A stretch of 64,000 nucleotides of DNA from a virus. Lineage: Duplodnaviria > Caudoviricetes. Numbering within the stretch: the stretch's first letter is position 1; each line of letters opens with the position of its first letter. The notes under the pieces were generated by a model that saw only the letters and a list, made by a program, of their open reading frames with translations, was not told the DNA's origin and ran no database searches. Both the position numbers and the translations under genes were made by a program. Where the stretch lies: IMG/VR virus record IMGVR_UViG_3300028833_000053. One strand, written 5' to 3'. This document shows positions 17,938 to 52,037 of this stretch, one piece after another.

Positions 17938-18030
17938 GTGTTGTTTGTGGTGATGTGAAAGATACTTCGACGAACAATGAATTAAGGAAATTCACCAAAC
18001 CTCTTTCACAAGTTTTCCCAAGCAACACTT
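17938..18030 (+). ncRNA. Candidate Y RNA 1 (Ro60 ligand)
   Basis: Own promoter TTTACA-17-TATAAT at 17905-17933; stems GTGTTGTTTG/CAAGCAACAC and TGTGAAAGA/TCTTTCACA around a TGGTGA/AGTTTTCC loop; TACTTC motif. Confidence 0.7.
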
Positions 18031-18060
18031 CAATTTATCAACAGAGAAAGGACATTGGCG

Positions 18061-19719
18061 ATGAGCAAGTTCAATAGCAAGAAGCCGGGAGTTCAAATGG
18101 CGAAGAACTTCATGGGTGAGGACGCATATGTGTTGTCTGACAAGGAAGCCTTGACTTCCATGGTCATGACCACGTTCCTTTCGGATTCCTATTATGTTAC
18201 GGAAAGCGACTTGGTTAACAACATCCTGACCCTTGTTGGGAAGTGCGGCAACGAGTTCGCCGCGAAGTTGGCTCTTTATGCAAGGACGAAGGGAAACATG
18301 CGTTCGGTGAGCCATTTGCTTGCCGCCATTGTCTGCAGGGATTCAGACCATCCATCATGGCTCAAGTCCTTCTACGAGCATATCGTGAACAGGCCCGATG
18401 ATATTTCCGAGATTCTGGCTTGCTATGGCAAGTTGAATGGCTTTGACCTCACTTCGGGAAAGCTGCGCAAGATTCCAAACTCGATGAAGAAGGGCTTTGC
18501 CACGGTGCTTTCGGGTCTTTCCCCCTATCAGATTGACAAGTACAAGATGAATGGGAAGTCATTGTCGTTGGTGGACATCTTGAACCTTGTTCATCCTACG
18601 CCGACCGACAAGAACAGGGAAGCCTATCGCAGGCTGATGCATGGGGAGTCCCTTGATGGAACTTACGACGCCAAGATTCTTGAGAAGGAAATGGCCGAGA
18701 CGGGCAAGAACGCCAGCAACGAGCAGGAACTGTTTTTGGCAAAGCACGATGCCATCAAGTCCGTCTTGGATTCGGGAATGCCCATAATGAACCTTCTCCG
18801 CAACCTGCACAACATCATGATTTACGCCCCAGACCTTGTGGAAGAGGCTATCAAGCAGCTCACGAACCGAGACAAGATTGTGAACAGCAAGTTGCTGCCA
18901 TTCCGCTTCATGTCTGCCTATGACGTTGTAGACAAGATGGAACTGTCGGACTACATTGTTTCTGAAACTCCAAACACCGCGATAAGGTTTGAGTCGGAGG
19001 TTGCCCGCATGGACTACAGCCAGCTTGAAACAATCAAGGCGAAGGTTCTGAAGGCAATTGAGGACGCCATGTCCATTGCCTGCGAGAACGTCCCAGACCT
19101 TGAGGGCAACTGCGCAATCCTTATCGATCATTCAGGTTCCGTGCGCGGTGACTGGGGTGGAGATTCCAGGGTTTCGCCTTGGAGCAATGTACGTACCGCC
19201 CATATCGGGAACCTGTTTGGCTCCATCGTGGCTTTCAAGCAGAAGGATGTCTACATTGGGATGTTCGGCGACAAACTCATTTCACCGAAGATGGACCGCA
19301 GCGTTGGCTTGCTTGAGTTCAACAAGAAGTCCTACGACGAGGGTGACAAGTGTGGTGGAGCGACCGAGAACGGACTGTACAAGTTCTTGGAGAATGTCAT
19401 CAAGGAAAAGAAGCACATTGACAACTTCATCGTGTTCTCCGACATGGAAATCGGCAATGGTGGCGAGGGTGGATGGGACCGCACAAGCACTGCAAGGTGC
19501 AAGTTCCAGGACTTGTTCAAGGAGTTCCGCAAGATAAACCCCAACTGCCTCACTGTGTGCTGCAACATCCGTGGTCAGAGTGGAACTTCCGTGTTCAATC
19601 CCAACCTCAAGATTCTGAACGTCTCAGGGTGGTCTAACAACATCTTTGACGTGATTTCCATGTACAAGACCGGCAAGTTGAAGTCAATGGTTGAGGACAT
19701 CGAGAAAATGAGCATTTAG
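18061..19719 (+). CDS. Ro60/TROVE domain RNA-binding protein with vWA domain (Rsr-like)
   Basis: ALYAR...MRS; NLLRNL; LLPFRF; MIDAS-like IDHSGS; FSDME; SGWS. Confidence 0.92.
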   Translation: MSKFNSKKPGVQMAKNFMGEDAYVLSDKEALTSMVMTTFLSDSYYVTESDLVNNILTLVGKCGNEFAAKLALYARTKGNMRSVSHLLAAIVCRDSDHPSWLKSFYEHIVNRPDDISEILACYGKLNGFDLTSGKLRKIPNSMKKGFATVLSGLSPYQIDKYKMNGKSLSLVDILNLVHPTPTDKNREAYRRLMHGESLDGTYDAKILEKEMAETGKNASNEQELFLAKHDAIKSVLDSGMPIMNLLRNLHNIMIYAPDLVEEAIKQLTNRDKIVNSKLLPFRFMSAYDVVDKMELSDYIVSETPNTAIRFESEVARMDYSQLETIKAKVLKAIEDAMSIACENVPDLEGNCAILIDHSGSVRGDWGGDSRVSPWSNVRTAHIGNLFGSIVAFKQKDVYIGMFGDKLISPKMDRSVGLLEFNKKSYDEGDKCGGATENGLYKFLENVIKEKKHIDNFIVFSDMEIGNGGEGGWDRTSTARCKFQDLFKEFRKINPNCLTVCCNIRGQSGTSVFNPNLKILNVSGWSNNIFDVISMYKTGKLKSMVEDIEKMSI

Positions 19720-19757
19720 GGCTTTACACGGAACGCGGTTTGACGTATAATTAATGT

Positions 19758-19840
19758 AGCCAGTGGTGAATGGATTGTTACTTCTGATCTGTTAAATCAA
19801 CCTAGTTACCCAATCCACGTTTTTCCCTGGCTTTTCTTTT
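19758..19840 (+). ncRNA. Candidate Y RNA 2 (Ro60 ligand)
   Basis: Own promoter at 19723-19751; stems AGCCAG/CTGGCT and TGGATTG/CAATCCA around a TGGTGAA/CG(T)nCC loop; TTACTTC; U-rich tail. Confidence 0.72.
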
Positions 19841-39484: not shown

Positions 39485-39561
39485 GGATGCGTAGCCCAAC
39501 GGCAGGAGGCAAATGACTCAAAATCATTACAGTGTGGGTCCGAATCCCACCGCATCTACCA
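39485..39561 (+). tRNA. tRNA-Leu(CAA), short variable loop
   Basis: AATGA-CTCAAAA-TCATT; CCA. Confidence 0.88.
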
Positions 39562-39995: not shown

Positions 39996-40074
39996 GGCGG
40001 TGTAGCCCAACTTGGCAGGAGGCAGCACGTTCAGGGCGTGTGTAGTGTGGGTCCGAATCCCACCATCGCTACCA
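39996..40074 (+). tRNA. tRNA-Leu(CAG), short variable loop
   Basis: GCACG-TTCAGGG-CGTGT; CCA. Confidence 0.85.
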
Positions 40075-42850: not shown

Positions 42851-42948
42851 TTTCAAGCCTTGCATTGCGTGAAGATGTTCTTTGGTGAGGGGAATTTAGC
42901 AGTGGATTTTCCAATACCACTTGCGTGAATGCAAGCAACCATTTCAAT

Positions 42949-43020
42949 AGGCGAATGATGTCAATGGTAGCATGAAGGTCTCCAAAACCTTATGTGGTGG
43001 TCCGAATCCACCTTTGCCTG
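42949..43020 (+). tRNA. tRNA-Trp(CCA), no encoded CCA end
   Basis: AAGGT-CTCCAAA-ACCTT. Confidence 0.85.
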
Positions 43021-43030
43021 AACTTTCAAT

Positions 43031-46959: not shown

Positions 46960-47063
46960 TTTACATTTGGATGTGATTAGTGTATAATTATGTATGCTCT
47001 TTGAGGGATACCAAGGTATCCAGAAGGTGCTTTGTTCCTTGACAACTGAATGTTTTGACGTTT
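46960..47063 (+). promoter_or_regulatory. Promoter P4 + two boxA-like motifs + processing-stem leader
   Basis: TTTACA-17-TATAAT; TGCTCTTTGA at 46995; GTTCCTTGACAACTGAA at 47034; TGAATGTTTTGACGTTT at 47047-47063. Confidence 0.7.
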
Positions 47064-47973: not shown

Positions 47974-48048
47974 TGTTCCCTGGGATAATGGCAGTCCAGC
48001 TCCCTCTGAAGGAGTAAGGTGAAAGTTCGACTCTTTCGGGAACAACCA
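47974..48048 (+). tRNA. tRNA-Gln(CTG)
   Basis: GCTCC-CTCTGAA-GGAGT; CCA. Confidence 0.88.
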
Positions 48049-48153
48049 ATTTCGGAATCCAGCGCACGTTGGATGGGTGTTCCAACCACCAAGGAGGTGC
48101 AAGCGACGGCTGGAGTGGTTCGAGTCCACCGCCTGGTTCCTTTTCAATTTCAT

Positions 48154-48228
48154 GCATCCGTGGGACATCAGCCGTCCGTCAGCCTTCCAAGCTGAAGTAG
48201 GCCAGGGCAGCACTGGTCGGATGCTCCA
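48154..48228 (+). tRNA. tRNA-Gly(TCC)
   Basis: TCAGC-CTTCCAA-GCTGA; U73; atypical T loop. Confidence 0.85.
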
Positions 48229-48482
48229 TTTTCAATCGTTGGAAAGCTCAGGTACCGGGCTTCCATCGAGAAAGCATGTGGGTAGGGCAGTTTCCCACGC
48301 AAAAGTTAGGGTAAGAGTCCTCAAATGACTGCCGCCAATTTCAATGTTAGGGTCGCTCTCTAATAGAAAACTATTCCTGATGCCGGGGTCAGTAAGACAC
48401 ACAAGGGAAACGAATGCAGGATATCATGCTCGTTTCAGATAATGTCAATAGGGGTAAGAGTCCTCATCCCATTTATTTCAAT

Positions 48483-48557
48483 GCGAACGTGGTACATCAG
48501 CAGTACACCAATCTGCCAGGTTGGATTAAGTGGGGGCAGCACCCATCGTTCGCTCCA
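48483..48557 (+). tRNA. tRNA-Gly(GCC)
   Basis: CCAAT-CTGCCAG-GTTGG; U73; atypical T loop. Confidence 0.85.
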
Positions 48558-49624
48558 ATTTTCAAGTTCCCAATCTTTGTGGGATTCTGATTGGGTTGCC
48601 TGTGGGCGTGAAAAAGTCTTAAGAACCCCGATGGTTTCCAACGATGGTTCTTGAGTACATTCTTGTGGATAATTGAGTGAAGTCTATGGCTTGTCTGGTC
48701 AAACTCAAATGACTGAACAAACATAGTCCTCGAATGGAAAAGTCTCCTGAGTTGGAAACTTTCACTTTGACGTATGATTGAATTTGTTGCAGCAAGCGCA
48801 GACCGGTGAGTCCGTATTTCACAATATGTTCAATGTTATTTGAACCCGGGTAGCACCCAAAATACGAAACTCCATATCCAATGAACCTTGGGCTACGGCT
48901 GGCAAGGGCAGTTGGAAGTAGTTGCCGGTTGCGTCCCATGAAGACGGTGTACAATCGCCCGAGGATGGAAACGATGTCACTATGCAGTGGGTTGGTGGGT
49001 AGGAAGAAGAATGGGCCGCGCCACCGTAAAACGGGTCCACCATTTCATGTGCAAGAAAAGCTACTTGCGCAGAAGACAGTACCCCATGTGAGTGGGGCTA
49101 GTGGTGTAGAAGAGGTGGATGCATTTGACCAGCGCTGGGATCGCCACTGATACTTCATGACATGACTACGGTAAAAGTCCGCATTCTCACACCGATTTCG
49201 GCGTTCATCGCACAATGGCTAGACACAAATAGTTCAAAAAGGCAGAATACACGAAGAGTGAGACAGTGGTCCGAATCCCGATGTGTTGGTTGAAACCAAA
49301 GTGCGGGAATTCATGAACGCCATTTGCAAGCCAACGGCACGTAGACGAATCGGGCGTTGGTGAAGTCCCAAGAACGTGTTGGGCTGAGCTGGGGGAACAT
49401 CAAACCCAGGGAACAACGGAGCCTACTCCGCGTAACGCCATGTCAAAGGATGTGCCATACGTGAAACAAAAACCTGTTCGCAGGTTATGGTTGTTGGGAA
49501 ACTGGCAGAGAACCGCGTAAAACAACTTCTGCTACCATTTTTCGGAAAACGGAAAGTTGGGATTCATCCGCCAACTAGGGATTCCGTAAAACCGGAAACC
49601 TCGATGTAGGAATCATCAGGATGA

Positions 49625-49756
49625 ACGCGCATAATTGGGTTGTTGCCGGCGTACTGCGCATAAGTTGGCAACAGTAAGAATCCAATCGGGGGTCCGAATC
49701 CCTCCATACCACAGCCTGTGGTATCGTGGCAGAGGCTGGCTGAATGCACTGCGCGT
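49625..49756 (+). ncRNA. Circularly permuted tRNA-like (YrlA-like) domain
   Basis: ACGCGCA/TGCGCGT closing stem; long variable hairpin; T arm; ATACCACA-GCC-TGTGGTAT closed acceptor; D arm. Confidence 0.7.
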
Positions 49757-50002
49757 GAGGAAACATGGGAAATTCAAAGTCAAAATGTCTAAACGGCGGA
49801 GAGAGTTCATTTTGAGCGGGAAGACAACCCGTTGTTTTGGTTCTCCTCCCGTGTTTCCTTCGATTTCATTTTGCGCAAAACCTCGTTGATGGCGCATGTC
49901 CCTAACAAGGCATCTTAATGTGTTGGCCGTGCATGGCATAATCCCTGGGTTGAATAAATCTTGCCACTGTGAAAACTGCCATTTCAACGAGACCCTTTTA
50001 TT

Positions 50003-50078
50003 GGACCGATATGTCAATGGTCAGACGAGGAGTCTCATAATCTCTAGGTTGCAGGTTCGAGTCCTGCTCGGTCCACCA
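50003..50078 (+). tRNA. tRNA-Ile2 or Met (CAT)
   Basis: CTCATAA loop; CCA. Confidence 0.85.
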
Positions 50079-50088
50079 ATTTTTCAAT

Positions 50089-50181
50089 GGGAGCGTAGCG
50101 GCCCCGTCTTATGAGCGGGAGATACCGTAGTGGTTCTTGAGATAACTTCAATCGTGGGTTCAAATCCTACCGCTCCTACCA
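50089..50181 (+). tRNA. D-arm-less tRNA-Ile(TAT)-like gene with long variable region
   Basis: GGGAGCG/CGCTCCT-ACCA; 7-nt linker; CCCGT-CTTATGA-GCGGG; T arm. Confidence 0.6.
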
Positions 50182-50189
50182 ATTTCAAT

Positions 50190-50270
50190 GGGTCCGTGGC
50201 TCGAGTGTGATAAAGGCAACCGGTTTGCATCCGGTACAAATAGTGGGTTTAACTCCCATCGGATCCACCA
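50190..50270 (+). tRNA. tRNA-Ala(TGC)
   Basis: G3:U70; CCA. Confidence 0.88.
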
Positions 50271-50370
50271 ATTTTAGAACCTGTAGCTCAGAAACTTAGA
50301 GCAAGGGAAACGGCCGGCTTAGTTGTCCCGCGCGAAGGTTAAAGCCCTTCCAGGTTCTGCATTTCAAAAA

Positions 50371-50461
50371 GCCACAGTCGCATAGCCTGGTCGATTGCAC
50401 TGGTTTTGTAAACCAGTATCCGATAAGGGTCGCGTCCGTTCAAATCGGACCTGTGGCTCCA
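50371..50461 (+). tRNA. tRNA-Thr(TGT), long variable arm
   Basis: CTGGT-TTTGTAA-ACCAG; CCA. Confidence 0.85.
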
Positions 50462-50467
50462 GTTTTT

Positions 50468-50558
50468 GCTGAGGTCGTATAGTCTGGTCGATTACAATGG
50501 CTTCGTAAGCCATTATGCTTCTGGCATCACGTCAGTTCAAATCTGACCCTCAGCTCCA
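50468..50558 (+). tRNA. tRNA-Thr(CGT), long variable arm
   Basis: ATGGC-TTCGTAA-GCCAT; CCA. Confidence 0.85.
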
Positions 50559-50562
50559 TTTG

Positions 50563-50645
50563 GCTAGGGTGGCTGAGAGACCGAAAGCGCGTCCATGGTA
50601 AGGACGTATTCCACATCGTCAGTTTGAATCTGACCCCTAGCTCCA
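50563..50645 (+). tRNA. tRNA-Thr(GGT), enlarged variable loop
   Basis: CGTCC-ATGGTAA-GGACG; CCA. Confidence 0.85.
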
Positions 50646-50654
50646 ATTTGAATT

Positions 50655-50684
50655 AGACCATAGGTGACAGCCTATGGTCTTTTC
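50655..50684 (+). terminator. Hairpin after the last tRNA
   Basis: AGACCATAGG/CCTATGGTCT + TTT. Confidence 0.55.
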
Positions 50685-50762
50685 ATTAAATTTATGTATA
50701 ATTTATAGTAAATACTTTTATGGAGTCACTGTCATGACTTCAACAACAAAAAGGTAAAAACA

Positions 50763-51545
50763 ATGAAATGTGAAAAATGCGGTAACGAACATGATGGTTC
50801 TTATGGAACAGGTAGATTTTGTTCAGAAAGTTGCAAACAAGCATATGTTGCTGGTAAAGTAAAACATAGAAAAAGTGGATTTGCAATAAATAATCCAAAC
50901 CCAAAAGCAAAGTATGGAACGTGGAAATGCCGACTTTGCGGAATCATTTTCAATACACGGGCAACCTTAAAACAACATATGAATTTGGAACATCCATATG
51001 ACAAATCTCATGCGTGGAATTATGGAAAGACAAAAGAATCAGATAAACGTCTAAAAATCGCATCGGAAAAACTTTCAATAAACATGAAACGTTATTTGGC
51101 TTCGGGAAAAGTACGCAAACACATATGGAATGATTCTGAACGTAAAGCCCAATCTGAACGAGCAAAGAAAAACAAAATTGGAGGCTATCATAAACATGGT
51201 GGACGTGGAAAAAGAGGATGGTATAAAGGATATTGGTGCGATAGTTCATGGGAACTTGCTTATGTCATATACAATCTTGAACACGATATACATTTTGTCA
51301 GAAACAGAGTTGGATTTGAATATGAATATGGAGGAATGATTCGGAAATACTATCCCGATTATATTCTTGATGATGGAACTTATGTCGAAGTAAAAGGATA
51401 TGAAGACGAAAAGGTTAAAGTAAAACACAAAACATTTATTTCATCTGGACACATATTAAATGTCATAGGAAAAGAGGAGATAAAACCATACCTTCAATAC
51501 GTCATCGAGAAATATGGAAAGGACTTTACAAGGCTATATGAATGA
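50763..51545 (+). CDS. Zn-finger + PD-(D/E)xK (TnsA-like) putative homing endonuclease, paralog of 43735
   Basis: CEKCGNEHDGSYGTGRFCS; DSSWE; YYPDY...VEVKG. Confidence 0.8.
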   Translation: MKCEKCGNEHDGSYGTGRFCSESCKQAYVAGKVKHRKSGFAINNPNPKAKYGTWKCRLCGIIFNTRATLKQHMNLEHPYDKSHAWNYGKTKESDKRLKIASEKLSINMKRYLASGKVRKHIWNDSERKAQSERAKKNKIGGYHKHGGRGKRGWYKGYWCDSSWELAYVIYNLEHDIHFVRNRVGFEYEYGGMIRKYYPDYILDDGTYVEVKGYEDEKVKVKHKTFISSGHILNVIGKEEIKPYLQYVIEKYGKDFTRLYE

Positions 51546-51558
51546 TGTATAATATCAT

Positions 51559-51780
51559 ATGACAAACAAAGAATTAATAGCCAAACTTTCTGAATTTCCC
51601 GAAGATTCCGAAGTTGATTTCTGTCTGTTTTCAAACTTGACACCAAGGCGTTGTGACGTTAAGGATAACCACGTCATGATTAGGCGGTCGCCTCATACGG
51701 GATTGCTCTACATCATGCTTGACCTTGAACCCTATTGGGAAGAGGACATCAAGCGTTCCTTGGCAAGGAATTTTAATTAG
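51559..51780 (+). CDS. Small hypothetical protein (ends at TAG)
   Basis: Leaderless after TTTACA-17-TATAAT at 51524; MTNKELIAKL..FP.D. Confidence 0.6.
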   Translation: MTNKELIAKLSEFPEDSEVDFCLFSNLTPRRCDVKDNHVMIRRSPHTGLLYIMLDLEPYWEEDIKRSLARNFN

Positions 51781-52037
51781 CTTCCCAATGCGCGTTCGGA
51801 CGTCTAGCCACGTTTCTGCAGAATCTGTGGCGGCTCCGTCCAACTGCCTTTGGGGTGTGTCCACGCAGGTTAGCGGGTTGGCGTGGACTTCATACGGTCA
51901 GCACAGACTCCCAAATCCAACAAACCCAACATAGATGAGTGTGCGTTCTATGCTTGGCTGGATCCAAAAACCCGCGACCATTTATCAAACGTCAAAACAT
52001 TCAAGCGAAACGGCGCCGGAAAACCGGCGCCGTTTTT
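51781..52037 (+). ncRNA. Structured RNA with trailer helix strand and terminator
   Basis: GCGGGTT/AACCCGC pseudoknot potential; CAAACGTCAAAACATTCAA at 51986-52004; AAACGGCGCCGG/CCGGCGCCGTTT terminator. Confidence 0.5.

What the first reader, a model, noticed from the sequence alone, without database searches (positions are those of the whole stretch)
49625..49756. Clean circularly permuted tRNA (YrlA topology) with a giant variable arm
Seen 5' to 3': ACGCGCA, a ~55-nt variable hairpin, T arm GGGGG-TCCGAAT-CCCTC, an acceptor closed by a GCC loop (ATACCACA/TGTGGTAT), a class II-type D arm TGGCAGAGGCTGGCTGAATGCA, then TGCGCGT. Known: this is the arrangement of the YrlA Y-RNA tRNA-mimic domain. 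Here it lies 30 kb from Ro60, and the Ro60-adjacent RNAs have only the binding stalk. One possibility is a modular phage Ro60 / Y RNA / tRNA-mimic system.
Basis: partly seen in the sequence, partly recalled or inferred. Interest (0 to 1): 0.8.

Follow-up and report, generated by a model that had tools for sequence, protein, structure and literature searches.

The report
Back-to-front tRNA mimic RNA, megaphage
Inside the tRNA operon of a 434-kb phage lies a conserved small RNA built like a serine-type tRNA in rotated order, with its amino-acid end sealed, no anticodon, and a second folded domain attached; its layout matches the bacterial YrlA tRNA mimic, but it failed every family test I could run and shows no detectable tie to the phage's Ro60 protein.

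Summary
Window 49625-49756 (+) reads: 7-bp stem strand, 53-nt structured variable arm, T arm, loop-closed acceptor helix, class II D arm, complementary stem strand.

It is a real RNA gene. A covariance model found four homologs in related megaphage DNA. Sixteen of 33 pairs show changes on both sides, and the elbow pair G19:C56 switches to A19:U56. RNAalifold recovers the same architecture without my input.

It is not a YrlA family member:
- Rfam YrlA gives no match.
- The D arm is class II rather than class I.
- The GNCGAA(N)G Ro60 motif is absent.
- It lies 29.9 kb from Ro60.

The Ro60 link is not supported. Ro60 has two flanking Y-like RNAs of its own that share a GUGGUGA...UACUUC signature, which the element lacks. 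The closest complete relative keeps Ro60 and both of those RNAs but has lost the element.

The element is always fused to a conserved ~115-nt downstream domain found nowhere else in these genomes.

Best reading: a Ro60-independent, two-domain tRNA-mimic ncRNA made from the tRNA operon. Its partner is unknown, and cleavage at the invariant A-GCC-Y acceptor loop is possible.

This scan has noted permuted phage tRNA mimics before on other DNA; the ACAGCAA handle reported there is absent here.

The parts
49625..49631 (+). P1 5' strand. It stands in for the 3' strand of an anticodon stem and pairs with 49750-49756.
   Evidence: Six of eight P1 pairs change on both sides across five homologs. RNAalifold predicts the stem independently.
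49634..49686 (+). Giant variable arm, 53 nt here and 54-69 nt in homologs. It is a bulged hairpin in this lineage and a Y-shaped two-hairpin arm in the G002 lineage.
   Evidence: Five of seven outer-stem pairs covary. Each arm folds closed on its own, with z from -0.3 to -4.8. The inner sequence is not conserved: P1 plus V identity is 29-46% between the W and G002 lineages.
49687..49687 (+). C48-equivalent, the partner of G15 in a Levitt-type pair.
   Evidence: Invariant C in all five homologs, directly before the T stem. G15 is also invariant.
49688..49704 (+). T arm: a 5-bp stem and a 7-nt loop UCCGAAU (UUUGAAU in the G002 lineage).
   Evidence: The same UCCGAAU loop occurs in this phage's own Leu and Trp tRNAs.
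49705..49726 (+). Sealed acceptor-like helix: 9 pairs with one bulged pyrimidine, closed by the loop GCC (49714-49716) inside the invariant C-A-G-C-C-Y-G.
   Evidence: (three pairs change on both sides). The bulge sits one position lower in the G002 lineage (read).
49727..49749 (+). U8 and G9, then a class II D arm (3-bp stem, 13-nt loop with A14, G15, G18, G19, A21), then position 26 plus one extra nucleotide.
   Evidence: The D-stem pair A:U changes to G:C. D-loop position 19 covaries with T-loop position 56 (G:C in two homologs, A:U in three, helix 4).
49750..49756 (+). P1 3' strand.
49757..49872 (+). Contiguous second domain of about 115 nt. It has a long closing stem, a conserved block beginning AAAUGUC, an inner hairpin with a GAAGAMAA loop followed by a U-rich run, and a U-rich tail.
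   Evidence: RNAalifold finds 26 pairs, 9 with changes on both sides. Model R3 finds it once per genome, always abutting the tRNA-like part, in G000, G002 and G010 and nowhere else.
46960..46988 (+). Promoter-like site (TTTACA-17-TATAAT) that probably starts the transcription unit.
   Evidence: 11 of 12 matches. This is a consensus match only.
50655..50680 (+). Terminator-like hairpin that probably ends the unit, after the three tRNA-Thr genes.
   Evidence: an 11-bp stem followed by a T run. This is a consensus match only.

Best explanation
It is a genuine accessory non-coding RNA gene of one clade of ~415-435-kb megaphages, co-transcribed with tRNAs. The RNA has two domains. Domain 1 is a class II (serine-type) tRNA body in circularly permuted order. 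The acceptor helix is sealed by an invariant A-GCC-Y loop. The anticodon arm is replaced by an open 7-8-bp stem with no anticodon loop. The variable arm is expanded to 53-69 nt. D-loop/T-loop elbow contacts are kept, so it should fold into a tRNA-like L shape. Domain 2 is a conserved ~115-nt structure attached directly to the 3' strand of the stem. Shown here: the structure, its conservation, the strict linkage of the two domains, and the lack of any detectable tie to Ro60. Inferred: it works by tRNA-shape mimicry. It would present a tRNA elbow and a long variable arm to a tRNA-recognising factor (RNase P, tRNA-modifying enzymes, a synthetase, or a host tRNA-targeting defence protein) without being able to decode. 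It probably arose from a tandem duplicate of a serine-type tRNA gene: the loop GCC matches the G73-C74-C75 that ends all three serine-type (GCCA-ending) tRNA genes printed from this array.
For: Homologs were found by structure rather than sequence: G002 at 60 bits and G010 at 42.5 bits, plus two metagenome contigs. Covariation is seen in every helix and at the tertiary 19:56 pair. RNAalifold independently gives the same architecture. U8, A14, G15, C48, U54 and A58 are invariant. ARAGORN accepts all five re-permuted cores as class II tRNA once an artificial anticodon loop is supplied and the V arm is shortened. No reading frame survives: all + frames carry stops, and homolog lengths differ by 11 and 14 nt. 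Position is syntenic between tRNA-Gln and tRNA-Met/Ile-Ala-Thr. Domain 2 co-occurs strictly with domain 1. Ro60 independence rests. The phage's serine-type tRNAs end in GCCA.
Against: There are only five sequences from about two to three lineages, so the covariation counts are not independent events. No expression, end-mapping or binding data exist. ARAGORN rejects the faithful re-permutation with the full V arm and 7-bp stem, and its acceptance depends mostly on the T arm (shuffle controls). The element is dispensable in G001. The interacting partner is unknown, so the 'decoy or scaffold' step is inference only. Single-sequence folding energy is unremarkable.
Confidence: 0.55

Rival explanations
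1. It is the tRNA-like module of the phage's Ro60 particle: a YrlA-type Y RNA encoded away from Ro60 that binds Ro60 directly or through the Ro60-flanking stalk RNAs.
For: The phage encodes a true TROVE-domain Ro60 at 18055-19719. The V-T-acceptor-D order on a stem is the YrlA layout, and Chen et al. report a tRNA-like domain in at least one Y RNA of each species (PMC4201824). The two Ro60-flanking RNAs have no tRNA body.
Against: RF02553 gives no match. The stem sequence is not conserved and has no GNCGAA(N)G. The GUGGUGA...UACUUC signature of the flanking RNAs occurs only at Ro60 (plus one isolated site elsewhere in the genome) and not in the element. The element is 29.9 kb from Ro60, against the under-4-kb rule for YrlA. 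G001 keeps Ro60 at 82% identity and both flanking RNAs but lacks the element. Phages with Ro60 at ~50% identity give no convincing match.
Confidence: 0.15
2. It is a precursor. RNase P cuts between the loop GCC and the first nucleotide of the acceptor 5' strand, and the CCA-adding enzyme adds one A. The result is a two-piece, anticodon-less tRNA-like molecule with a free GCCA end that could be charged, most plausibly by SerRS.
For: The invariant C-A-G-C-C-Y-G matches 72-G73-C74-C75 followed by +1. The next pair (2:71 in this count) is an invariant G:C. The phage's serine-type tRNAs end in GCCA. M. smegmatis YrlA is cut by RNase P in the equivalent loop and gains CA in vivo (PMC4201824). From my own knowledge: SerRS uses the long variable arm and ignores the anticodon.
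Against: [quoted passage not shown] Pair 1:72 is U:A or a C/A mismatch, not G:C. The V arm is three to four times longer than that of any tRNA-Ser. No processing data exist.
Confidence: 0.15
3. It is a cis-acting operon element: a tRNA-shaped processing or attenuation signal that sets the ends or level of neighbouring RNAs, with no function as a free RNA.
For: It lies inside a polycistronic tRNA unit. Domain 2 contains a hairpin plus U run that scores as terminator-like at 49815-49833.
Against: The whole module is absent from G001 while the neighbouring conserved blocks and tRNAs remain. In the G002 lineage the module sits among differently ordered neighbours, so it behaves as a self-contained gene.
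Confidence: 0.1
4. It is a decaying relic of a tandem tRNA duplication, or a chance arrangement, with no function.
For: It is absent from one close relative. It has no Rfam match. Single-sequence folding energy is ordinary.
Against: P1 and V arm sequences have diverged to 29-46% identity between the W and G002 lineages while pairing is kept. The T-acceptor-D core stays 72-100% identical, and a tertiary pair covaries.
Confidence: 0.05

Closest known systems
YrlA, the tRNA-like Y RNA of bacterial and mycobacteriophage Ro60/Rsr (Rfam RF02553; Chen et al. 2014, PMC4201824; structure preprint 10.1101/312249)
   Same: Same connectivity: a stem formed by the two ends, then V region, T arm, loop-closed acceptor-like stem and D arm. 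tRNA tertiary contacts are possible (8:14, 15:48, 19:56, 54:58). It occurs in a phage that encodes Ro60. There is a precedent for RNase P cleavage in the acceptor loop.
   Different: No match to the family model. The D arm is class II (3-bp stem, 11-13-nt loop) rather than the near-invariant class I arm. The V arm is 53-69 nt rather than about 4 nt. There is no GNCGAA(N)G Ro60 motif and no conserved stem sequence. It lies 29.9 kb from Ro60 inside a tRNA operon. It is fused to a second conserved domain. It is absent from a relative that keeps Ro60.
Circularly permuted tRNA genes of Cyanidioschyzon merolae and other algae (from my own knowledge; mentioned in PMC4238349, not read here)
   Same: The 3' half comes before the 5' half, and the acceptor strands are joined by a short linker.
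   Different: Those genes carry a complete anticodon loop and mature through a circular intermediate into decoding tRNAs. Here the anticodon loop does not exist, and the stem strands are fully complementary out to the ends.
Two-piece (permuted) tmRNA (Rfam RF04321)
   Same: A permuted tRNA-like domain is followed by a longer 3' domain, and a stem replaces the anticodon arm.
   Different: No Rfam or ARAGORN tmRNA match. G3:U70 is not conserved. It has a true D stem and a giant V arm. The only open frame in domain 2 is not conserved in length or C-terminus.
Handle-tagged permuted tRNA mimics next to Ro60-like DUF2828 proteins in Felix O1-type and other phages
   Same: An acceptor-closed, permuted tRNA-shaped RNA inside a phage tRNA array.
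   Different: The ACAGCAA handle reported there is absent: 10 hits in the window against 9.8 expected, and none on the + strand of the RNA operon. The protein here is a Pfam-recognised TROVE Ro60 with its own, different flanking RNAs.

Membership tests
YrlA (Rfam RF02553) | Scores at or above the family gathering threshold (69 bits) with the covariance model | tested here: not met
   No YrlA match at E<=10 in 49300-50000. A whole-genome search gives only 11-22-bit matches to tandem tRNAs, none at the element or near Ro60.
YrlA (Rfam RF02553) | GNCGAA(N0-1)G motif near the 5' end (putative Ro60 contact) | tested here: not met
   The motif is absent from P1 and the 5' flank in the window. A GUCGAAG occurs only in two homologs, as the 5' strand of the V-arm stem, and is not conserved.
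YrlA (Rfam RF02553) | Encoded within about 4 kb of Ro60 on the same strand | tested here: not met
   It is on the same strand but 29.9 kb away (Ro60 at 18055-19719). The rule comes from PMC4201824.
YrlA (Rfam RF02553) | Order V - T - acceptor-like stem-loop - D, enclosed by a stem of the two ends | tested here: met
YrlA (Rfam RF02553) | Near-invariant T and D stem-loop sequences of the family (class I D arm) | tested here: not met
   The family consensus is printed. The element has a class II D arm and a different T stem.
YrlA (Rfam RF02553) | Bound by Ro60/Rsr | not testable with these tools
   Indirect evidence is negative: no shared motif with the Ro60-flanking RNAs, and the element is absent from Ro60-bearing G001.
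Canonical tRNA (RF00005 / ARAGORN) | Cloverleaf in normal order with a 7-nt anticodon loop | tested here: not met
   Neither tool finds it in genomic order. The faithful re-permutation is rejected. It is accepted only with an artificial loop, a stem cut to 5 bp and a shortened V arm.
Canonical tRNA (RF00005 / ARAGORN) | Elbow-forming tertiary nucleotides (U8, A14, R15:Y48, G18, G19:C56, U54:A58) | tested here: met
   These positions are invariant in the five homologs, except that 19:56 covaries between G:C and A:U and position 55 is C in the window lineage.
Permuted tRNA genes (algal type) | A complete anticodon loop is reconstituted when the transcript ends are joined | tested here: not met
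   The two stem strands are complementary to their last nucleotide and the flanks are not conserved between lineages.
Two-piece tmRNA (RF04321) | Model match, G3:U70, and a conserved tag reading frame | tested here: not met
   No match. Pair 3:70 is U:A, G:U, C:G or U:G. The frame in domain 2 varies in length and C-terminus (read).
ACAGCAA-handle phage RNAs (earlier notes of this scan) | 7-bp stem plus the ACAGCAA motif | tested here: not met
   The motif is not enriched and is not in the element or its homologs.

The most novel reading that the evidence does not exclude
After one RNase P cut at the sealed loop and addition of a single A, the RNA becomes a two-piece, anticodon-less acceptor with a GCCA end, a class II D arm and a huge variable arm. 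The host SerRS could then charge it. This would give the phage either a sink for SerRS or a seryl donor for a non-ribosomal reaction, carried on a ~250-nt two-domain RNA.
Probability: 0.1. Interest if true: 0.85.

Novelty: new variant of a known kind. Interest (0 to 1): 0.6.

Why it matters
Within my searches of the held paper library, YrlA of Ro60 particles is the described RNA with this back-to-front, acceptor-sealed tRNA layout. Here the same layout has been built from a different tRNA class. It carries a variable arm as long as 69 nt and is welded to a second conserved domain. It shows no detectable tie to the Ro60 that the same phage encodes. That suggests the layout is a recurrent solution for presenting a tRNA shape that cannot decode, and not simply a Ro60 accessory. 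It also gives a compact test object for asking which tRNA-handling enzymes or tRNA-targeting defences huge phages manipulate. Finally, it shows that 'non-coding gaps' in phage tRNA arrays hold conserved RNA genes that tRNA finders and Rfam miss.

Tried and rejected
- **Sequence searches:** megablast of 48000-52000 against GenBank phages found nothing. An exact 25-mer scan of IMG/VR found nothing. BLAST of the element against five Ro60-bearing relatives matched only the T arm.
- **Neighbouring ORF as an anchor:** ORF 50763-51545 hits 54 unrelated loci, so I did not use it as a synteny anchor.
- **Pattern scans:** the metagenome scan returned mostly ordinary tRNA 3' ends followed by other sequence; only L097 and L210 were homologs. 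All 18 hits of the bacterial-genome pattern scan failed the covariance model.
- **Weak model hits:** 15-18-bit R2 hits in Ro60 phages at ~50% identity are tandem tRNAs or, at L213:1897-2020, an unannotated normal-order tRNA-like sequence. They are not homologs.
- **Coding explanations:** rejected for the element. In domain 2, a frame starting MSKRRR has two synonymous differences between lineages. However, window against L210 shows four two-nucleotide non-synonymous codon changes, at least two of them compensatory in the RNA stems as I read them, and frame length varies from 26 to 46 codons. I read it as RNA.
- **tmRNA-like reading:** rejected (see membership test).
- **Alternative pairings:** the P1 extension UGGGAG/CUCCCA in the G002 lineage cannot be judged, because the three sequences are identical there. 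The pairing of the acceptor loop with the D loop in the single-sequence fold, and the 7-nt repeat shared by the V loop and the P1 3' strand in the window, are not conserved in homologs.

Full report
**Context.** The window is the minus strand of a 433,895-bp virus record with direct terminal repeats. ARAGORN finds 34 tRNA genes between 37.7 and 50.6 kb, and Rfam finds 30 tRNA matches and nothing else. The finding lies between tRNA-Gln (47974-48048) and tRNA-Met (50003-50078). This roughly 2-kb stretch has no credible + strand ORF under the standard code or with TAG read as Gln. A strong promoter-like site at 46960-46988 and a terminator-like hairpin at 50655-50680 bracket the stretch together with eight ARAGORN tRNA genes.

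**The observation.** I refine three points.
- C49705 pairs with G49726 across a bulged C49725. The sealed acceptor helix therefore has nine pairs and joins the T stem on one side and U8 on the other, as in a tRNA.
- The D stem has 3 bp and is preceded by U8 and G9. Its 13-nt loop reads like that of a class II (Ser-type) tRNA.
- In four of five homologs the outer stem has 8 bp.

**Homologs.**
- BLAST against five Ro60-bearing relatives found only the T arm.
- A covariance model built from the single sequence and my structure found a full-length match in the complete 414-kb relative G002 at 60 bits. It found another in a 201-kb contig, G010, at 42.5 bits.
- A pattern of the conserved core retrieved two further copies from metagenome contigs, L097 and L210.
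- All copies lie in tRNA arrays in the same neighbourhood: Gln upstream and Met/Ile-Ala-Thr downstream.
- The T-acceptor-D core is 72-100% identical between copies. The outer stem plus variable arm are only 29-46% identical between the W and G002 lineages.
- L097 is a mosaic: its core is identical to G002 and its V arm is like G010. The outer stem stays paired through a change on the 3' strand.

**Structure support.** On the five-sequence alignment, 95.8% of cells pair. Sixteen of 33 pairs show changes on both sides, covering the outer stem, the V-arm outer stem, the acceptor helix and the D stem. Sliding the partners by one to three columns gives 37-49% paired and one to three such pairs. RNAalifold, run without my structure, returns the same five helices. 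The sample is small, about two to three lineages, so these are counts and not independent events.

**tRNA-likeness.**
- U8, A14, G15, C48, U54 and A58 are invariant.
- The tertiary pair 19:56 is G:C in the window lineage and A:U in the other three (helix 4). I take this as the best single argument for a tRNA elbow.
- T-loop position 55 is C in the window lineage. The same UCCGAAU loop occurs in the phage's own Leu and Trp tRNAs, so the T arm is of local origin.
- ARAGORN rejects the faithful re-permutation.
- It accepts all five cores as class II tRNA when I supply an anticodon loop, cut the stem to 5 bp and shorten the V arm.
- Shuffle controls show this acceptance rests mainly on the T arm: 9 of about 500 are still detected after shuffling the T arm, against 273 after shuffling the D arm. 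It is therefore weak support on its own.
- The V arms (53-69 nt) each fold closed. They form one bulged hairpin in the window lineage and a two-hairpin Y shape in the other.

**Not coding.** All three + frames of the window copy carry stops, and homolog lengths differ by 11 and 14 nt.

**YrlA membership.**
- Rfam holds YrlA (RF02553, gathering score 69 bits). It gives no match to the element at E<=10.
- Across the whole phage genome it gives only 11-22-bit matches to tandem tRNAs.
- The family consensus has a class I D arm and a 4-nt V region.
- Chen et al. define YrlA by a GNCGAA(N0-1)G motif near the 5' end, by location within about 4 kb of Ro60, and by near-invariant T and D arms (PMC4201824). 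None of these holds here.
- Only the connectivity and the tertiary potential are shared.

**The Ro60 link.**
- Ro60 (18055-19719) is a true TROVE protein.
- It is flanked by two RNAs that are conserved with covariation in four relatives. They share a GUGGUGA...UACUUC signature.
- That signature occurs in the genome only at these two sites, plus one isolated site elsewhere. It is absent from the element.
- G001 is complete and its Ro60 is 82% identical, the highest identity found. It keeps both flanking RNAs.
- In G001, about 95 nt of unrelated sequence replaces window 49441-49867, and neither RNA model matches G001 significantly.
- The 'modular Ro60 system' reading is therefore not supported. 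Binding in trans cannot be excluded by computation.

**A second domain.**
- Directly after the 3' stem strand comes a conserved ~115-nt structure (49757-49872). It follows with no spacer in the window lineage and after 9 nt in the other.
- RNAalifold predicts 26 pairs, nine of them with changes on both sides.
- A model of this domain finds it once per genome, always abutting the tRNA-like part, in G000, G002 and G010. It finds it nowhere else, including G001.
- The unit of inheritance is therefore a ~250-nt two-domain RNA.

**Mechanism.**
- Shown: a conserved, structured, two-domain RNA with a permuted tRNA-like body that cannot decode.
- Inferred: it acts by tRNA-shape mimicry toward a tRNA-recognising factor.
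- Origin: the invariant loop context C-A-G-C-C-Y-G reads as 72, G73, C74, C75 and then +1. The three serine-type (GCCA-ending) tRNA genes printed from this array end in GCCA. This fits an origin from a tandem serine-type tRNA duplicate.
- Possible processing: RNase P could cut at 49716/49717 and one A could then be added. M. smegmatis YrlA is cut in the equivalent loop and gains CA in vivo.
- Against that route: the helix has nine pairs plus a bulge, and Chen et al. name a 7-bp stem as a major determinant of cleavage.
- I rate the closed decoy or scaffold reading at 0.55, the Ro60 reading at 0.15, the cleaved chargeable form at 0.15, a cis-acting operon signal at 0.10 and a relic at 0.05.

**Novelty.** No homolog was found in GenBank phages, in pattern hits from one genome per prokaryote species, or in Rfam. 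My paper searches turned up YrlA and the 2026 preprint on three other tRNA-mimic families, whose members did not match in Rfam. Earlier notes of this scan describe permuted, acceptor-sealed tRNA mimics in other phages that carry an ACAGCAA handle next to Ro60-like DUF2828 proteins. That handle is absent here. I class the element as a new variant of a known kind.

Noticed in passing
window 17940-18040 and 19757-19835: Two independently promoted stalk-type RNAs flank Ro60. They share a GUGGUGA...UACUUC signature and are conserved with compensatory changes in four relatives. They look like this clade's actual Y-RNA candidates, yet they do not match Rfam YrlA or Y_RNA.
   Followed up: partly
window 39485-39561, 39996-40074, 42948-43021 and others: Several of the phage's bona fide tRNAs (Leu and Trp; Lys-CUU has UCCGAUU) have C at T-loop position 55, where U (pseudouridine 55) is almost universal.
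   Followed up: no
L097:830-975 compared with L079 and L083: One homolog is a mosaic. Its T-acceptor-D core is identical to G002, while its 5' stem strand and V arm are 95% like G010. The outer stem is kept paired by a change on the 3' strand. This suggests recombination within the RNA gene.
   Followed up: partly
window 48477-48562, 49220-49468, 50082-50185 against L079 and L083: Conserved non-tRNA blocks of the 2-kb spacer occur in a different order in the G002/G010 lineage. They behave like separate RNA gene cassettes.
   Followed up: no
window 49785-49889: A frame beginning MSKRRR lies inside domain 2. Its first six codons are conserved, with only synonymous differences between lineages. 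The rest is not conserved, and some changes compensate in the RNA stems. It is probably not translated, but this was not excluded.
   Followed up: partly
window 49653-49659 and 49748-49754: The 7-nt string ACUGCGC occurs both in the apical loop of the V arm and at the 3' stem strand. The V loop could therefore compete for the 5' stem strand. This is not seen in L210 and only loosely in the other lineage.
   Followed up: partly
L213:1897-2020 (-), in G005, a phage with Ro60 at 50% identity: An unannotated tRNA-like sequence with a T arm and a D-like arm lies between tRNA-Leu and tRNA-Cys, about 8 kb from Ro60. ARAGORN does not call it and it is not a homolog of the element.
   Followed up: partly
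L226:950-1060 (-), in G001: G001 carries about 95 nt of unrelated sequence exactly where the other genomes carry the ~420-nt block that contains the element and domain 2. I could not tell whether this reflects replacement or insertion.
   Followed up: no
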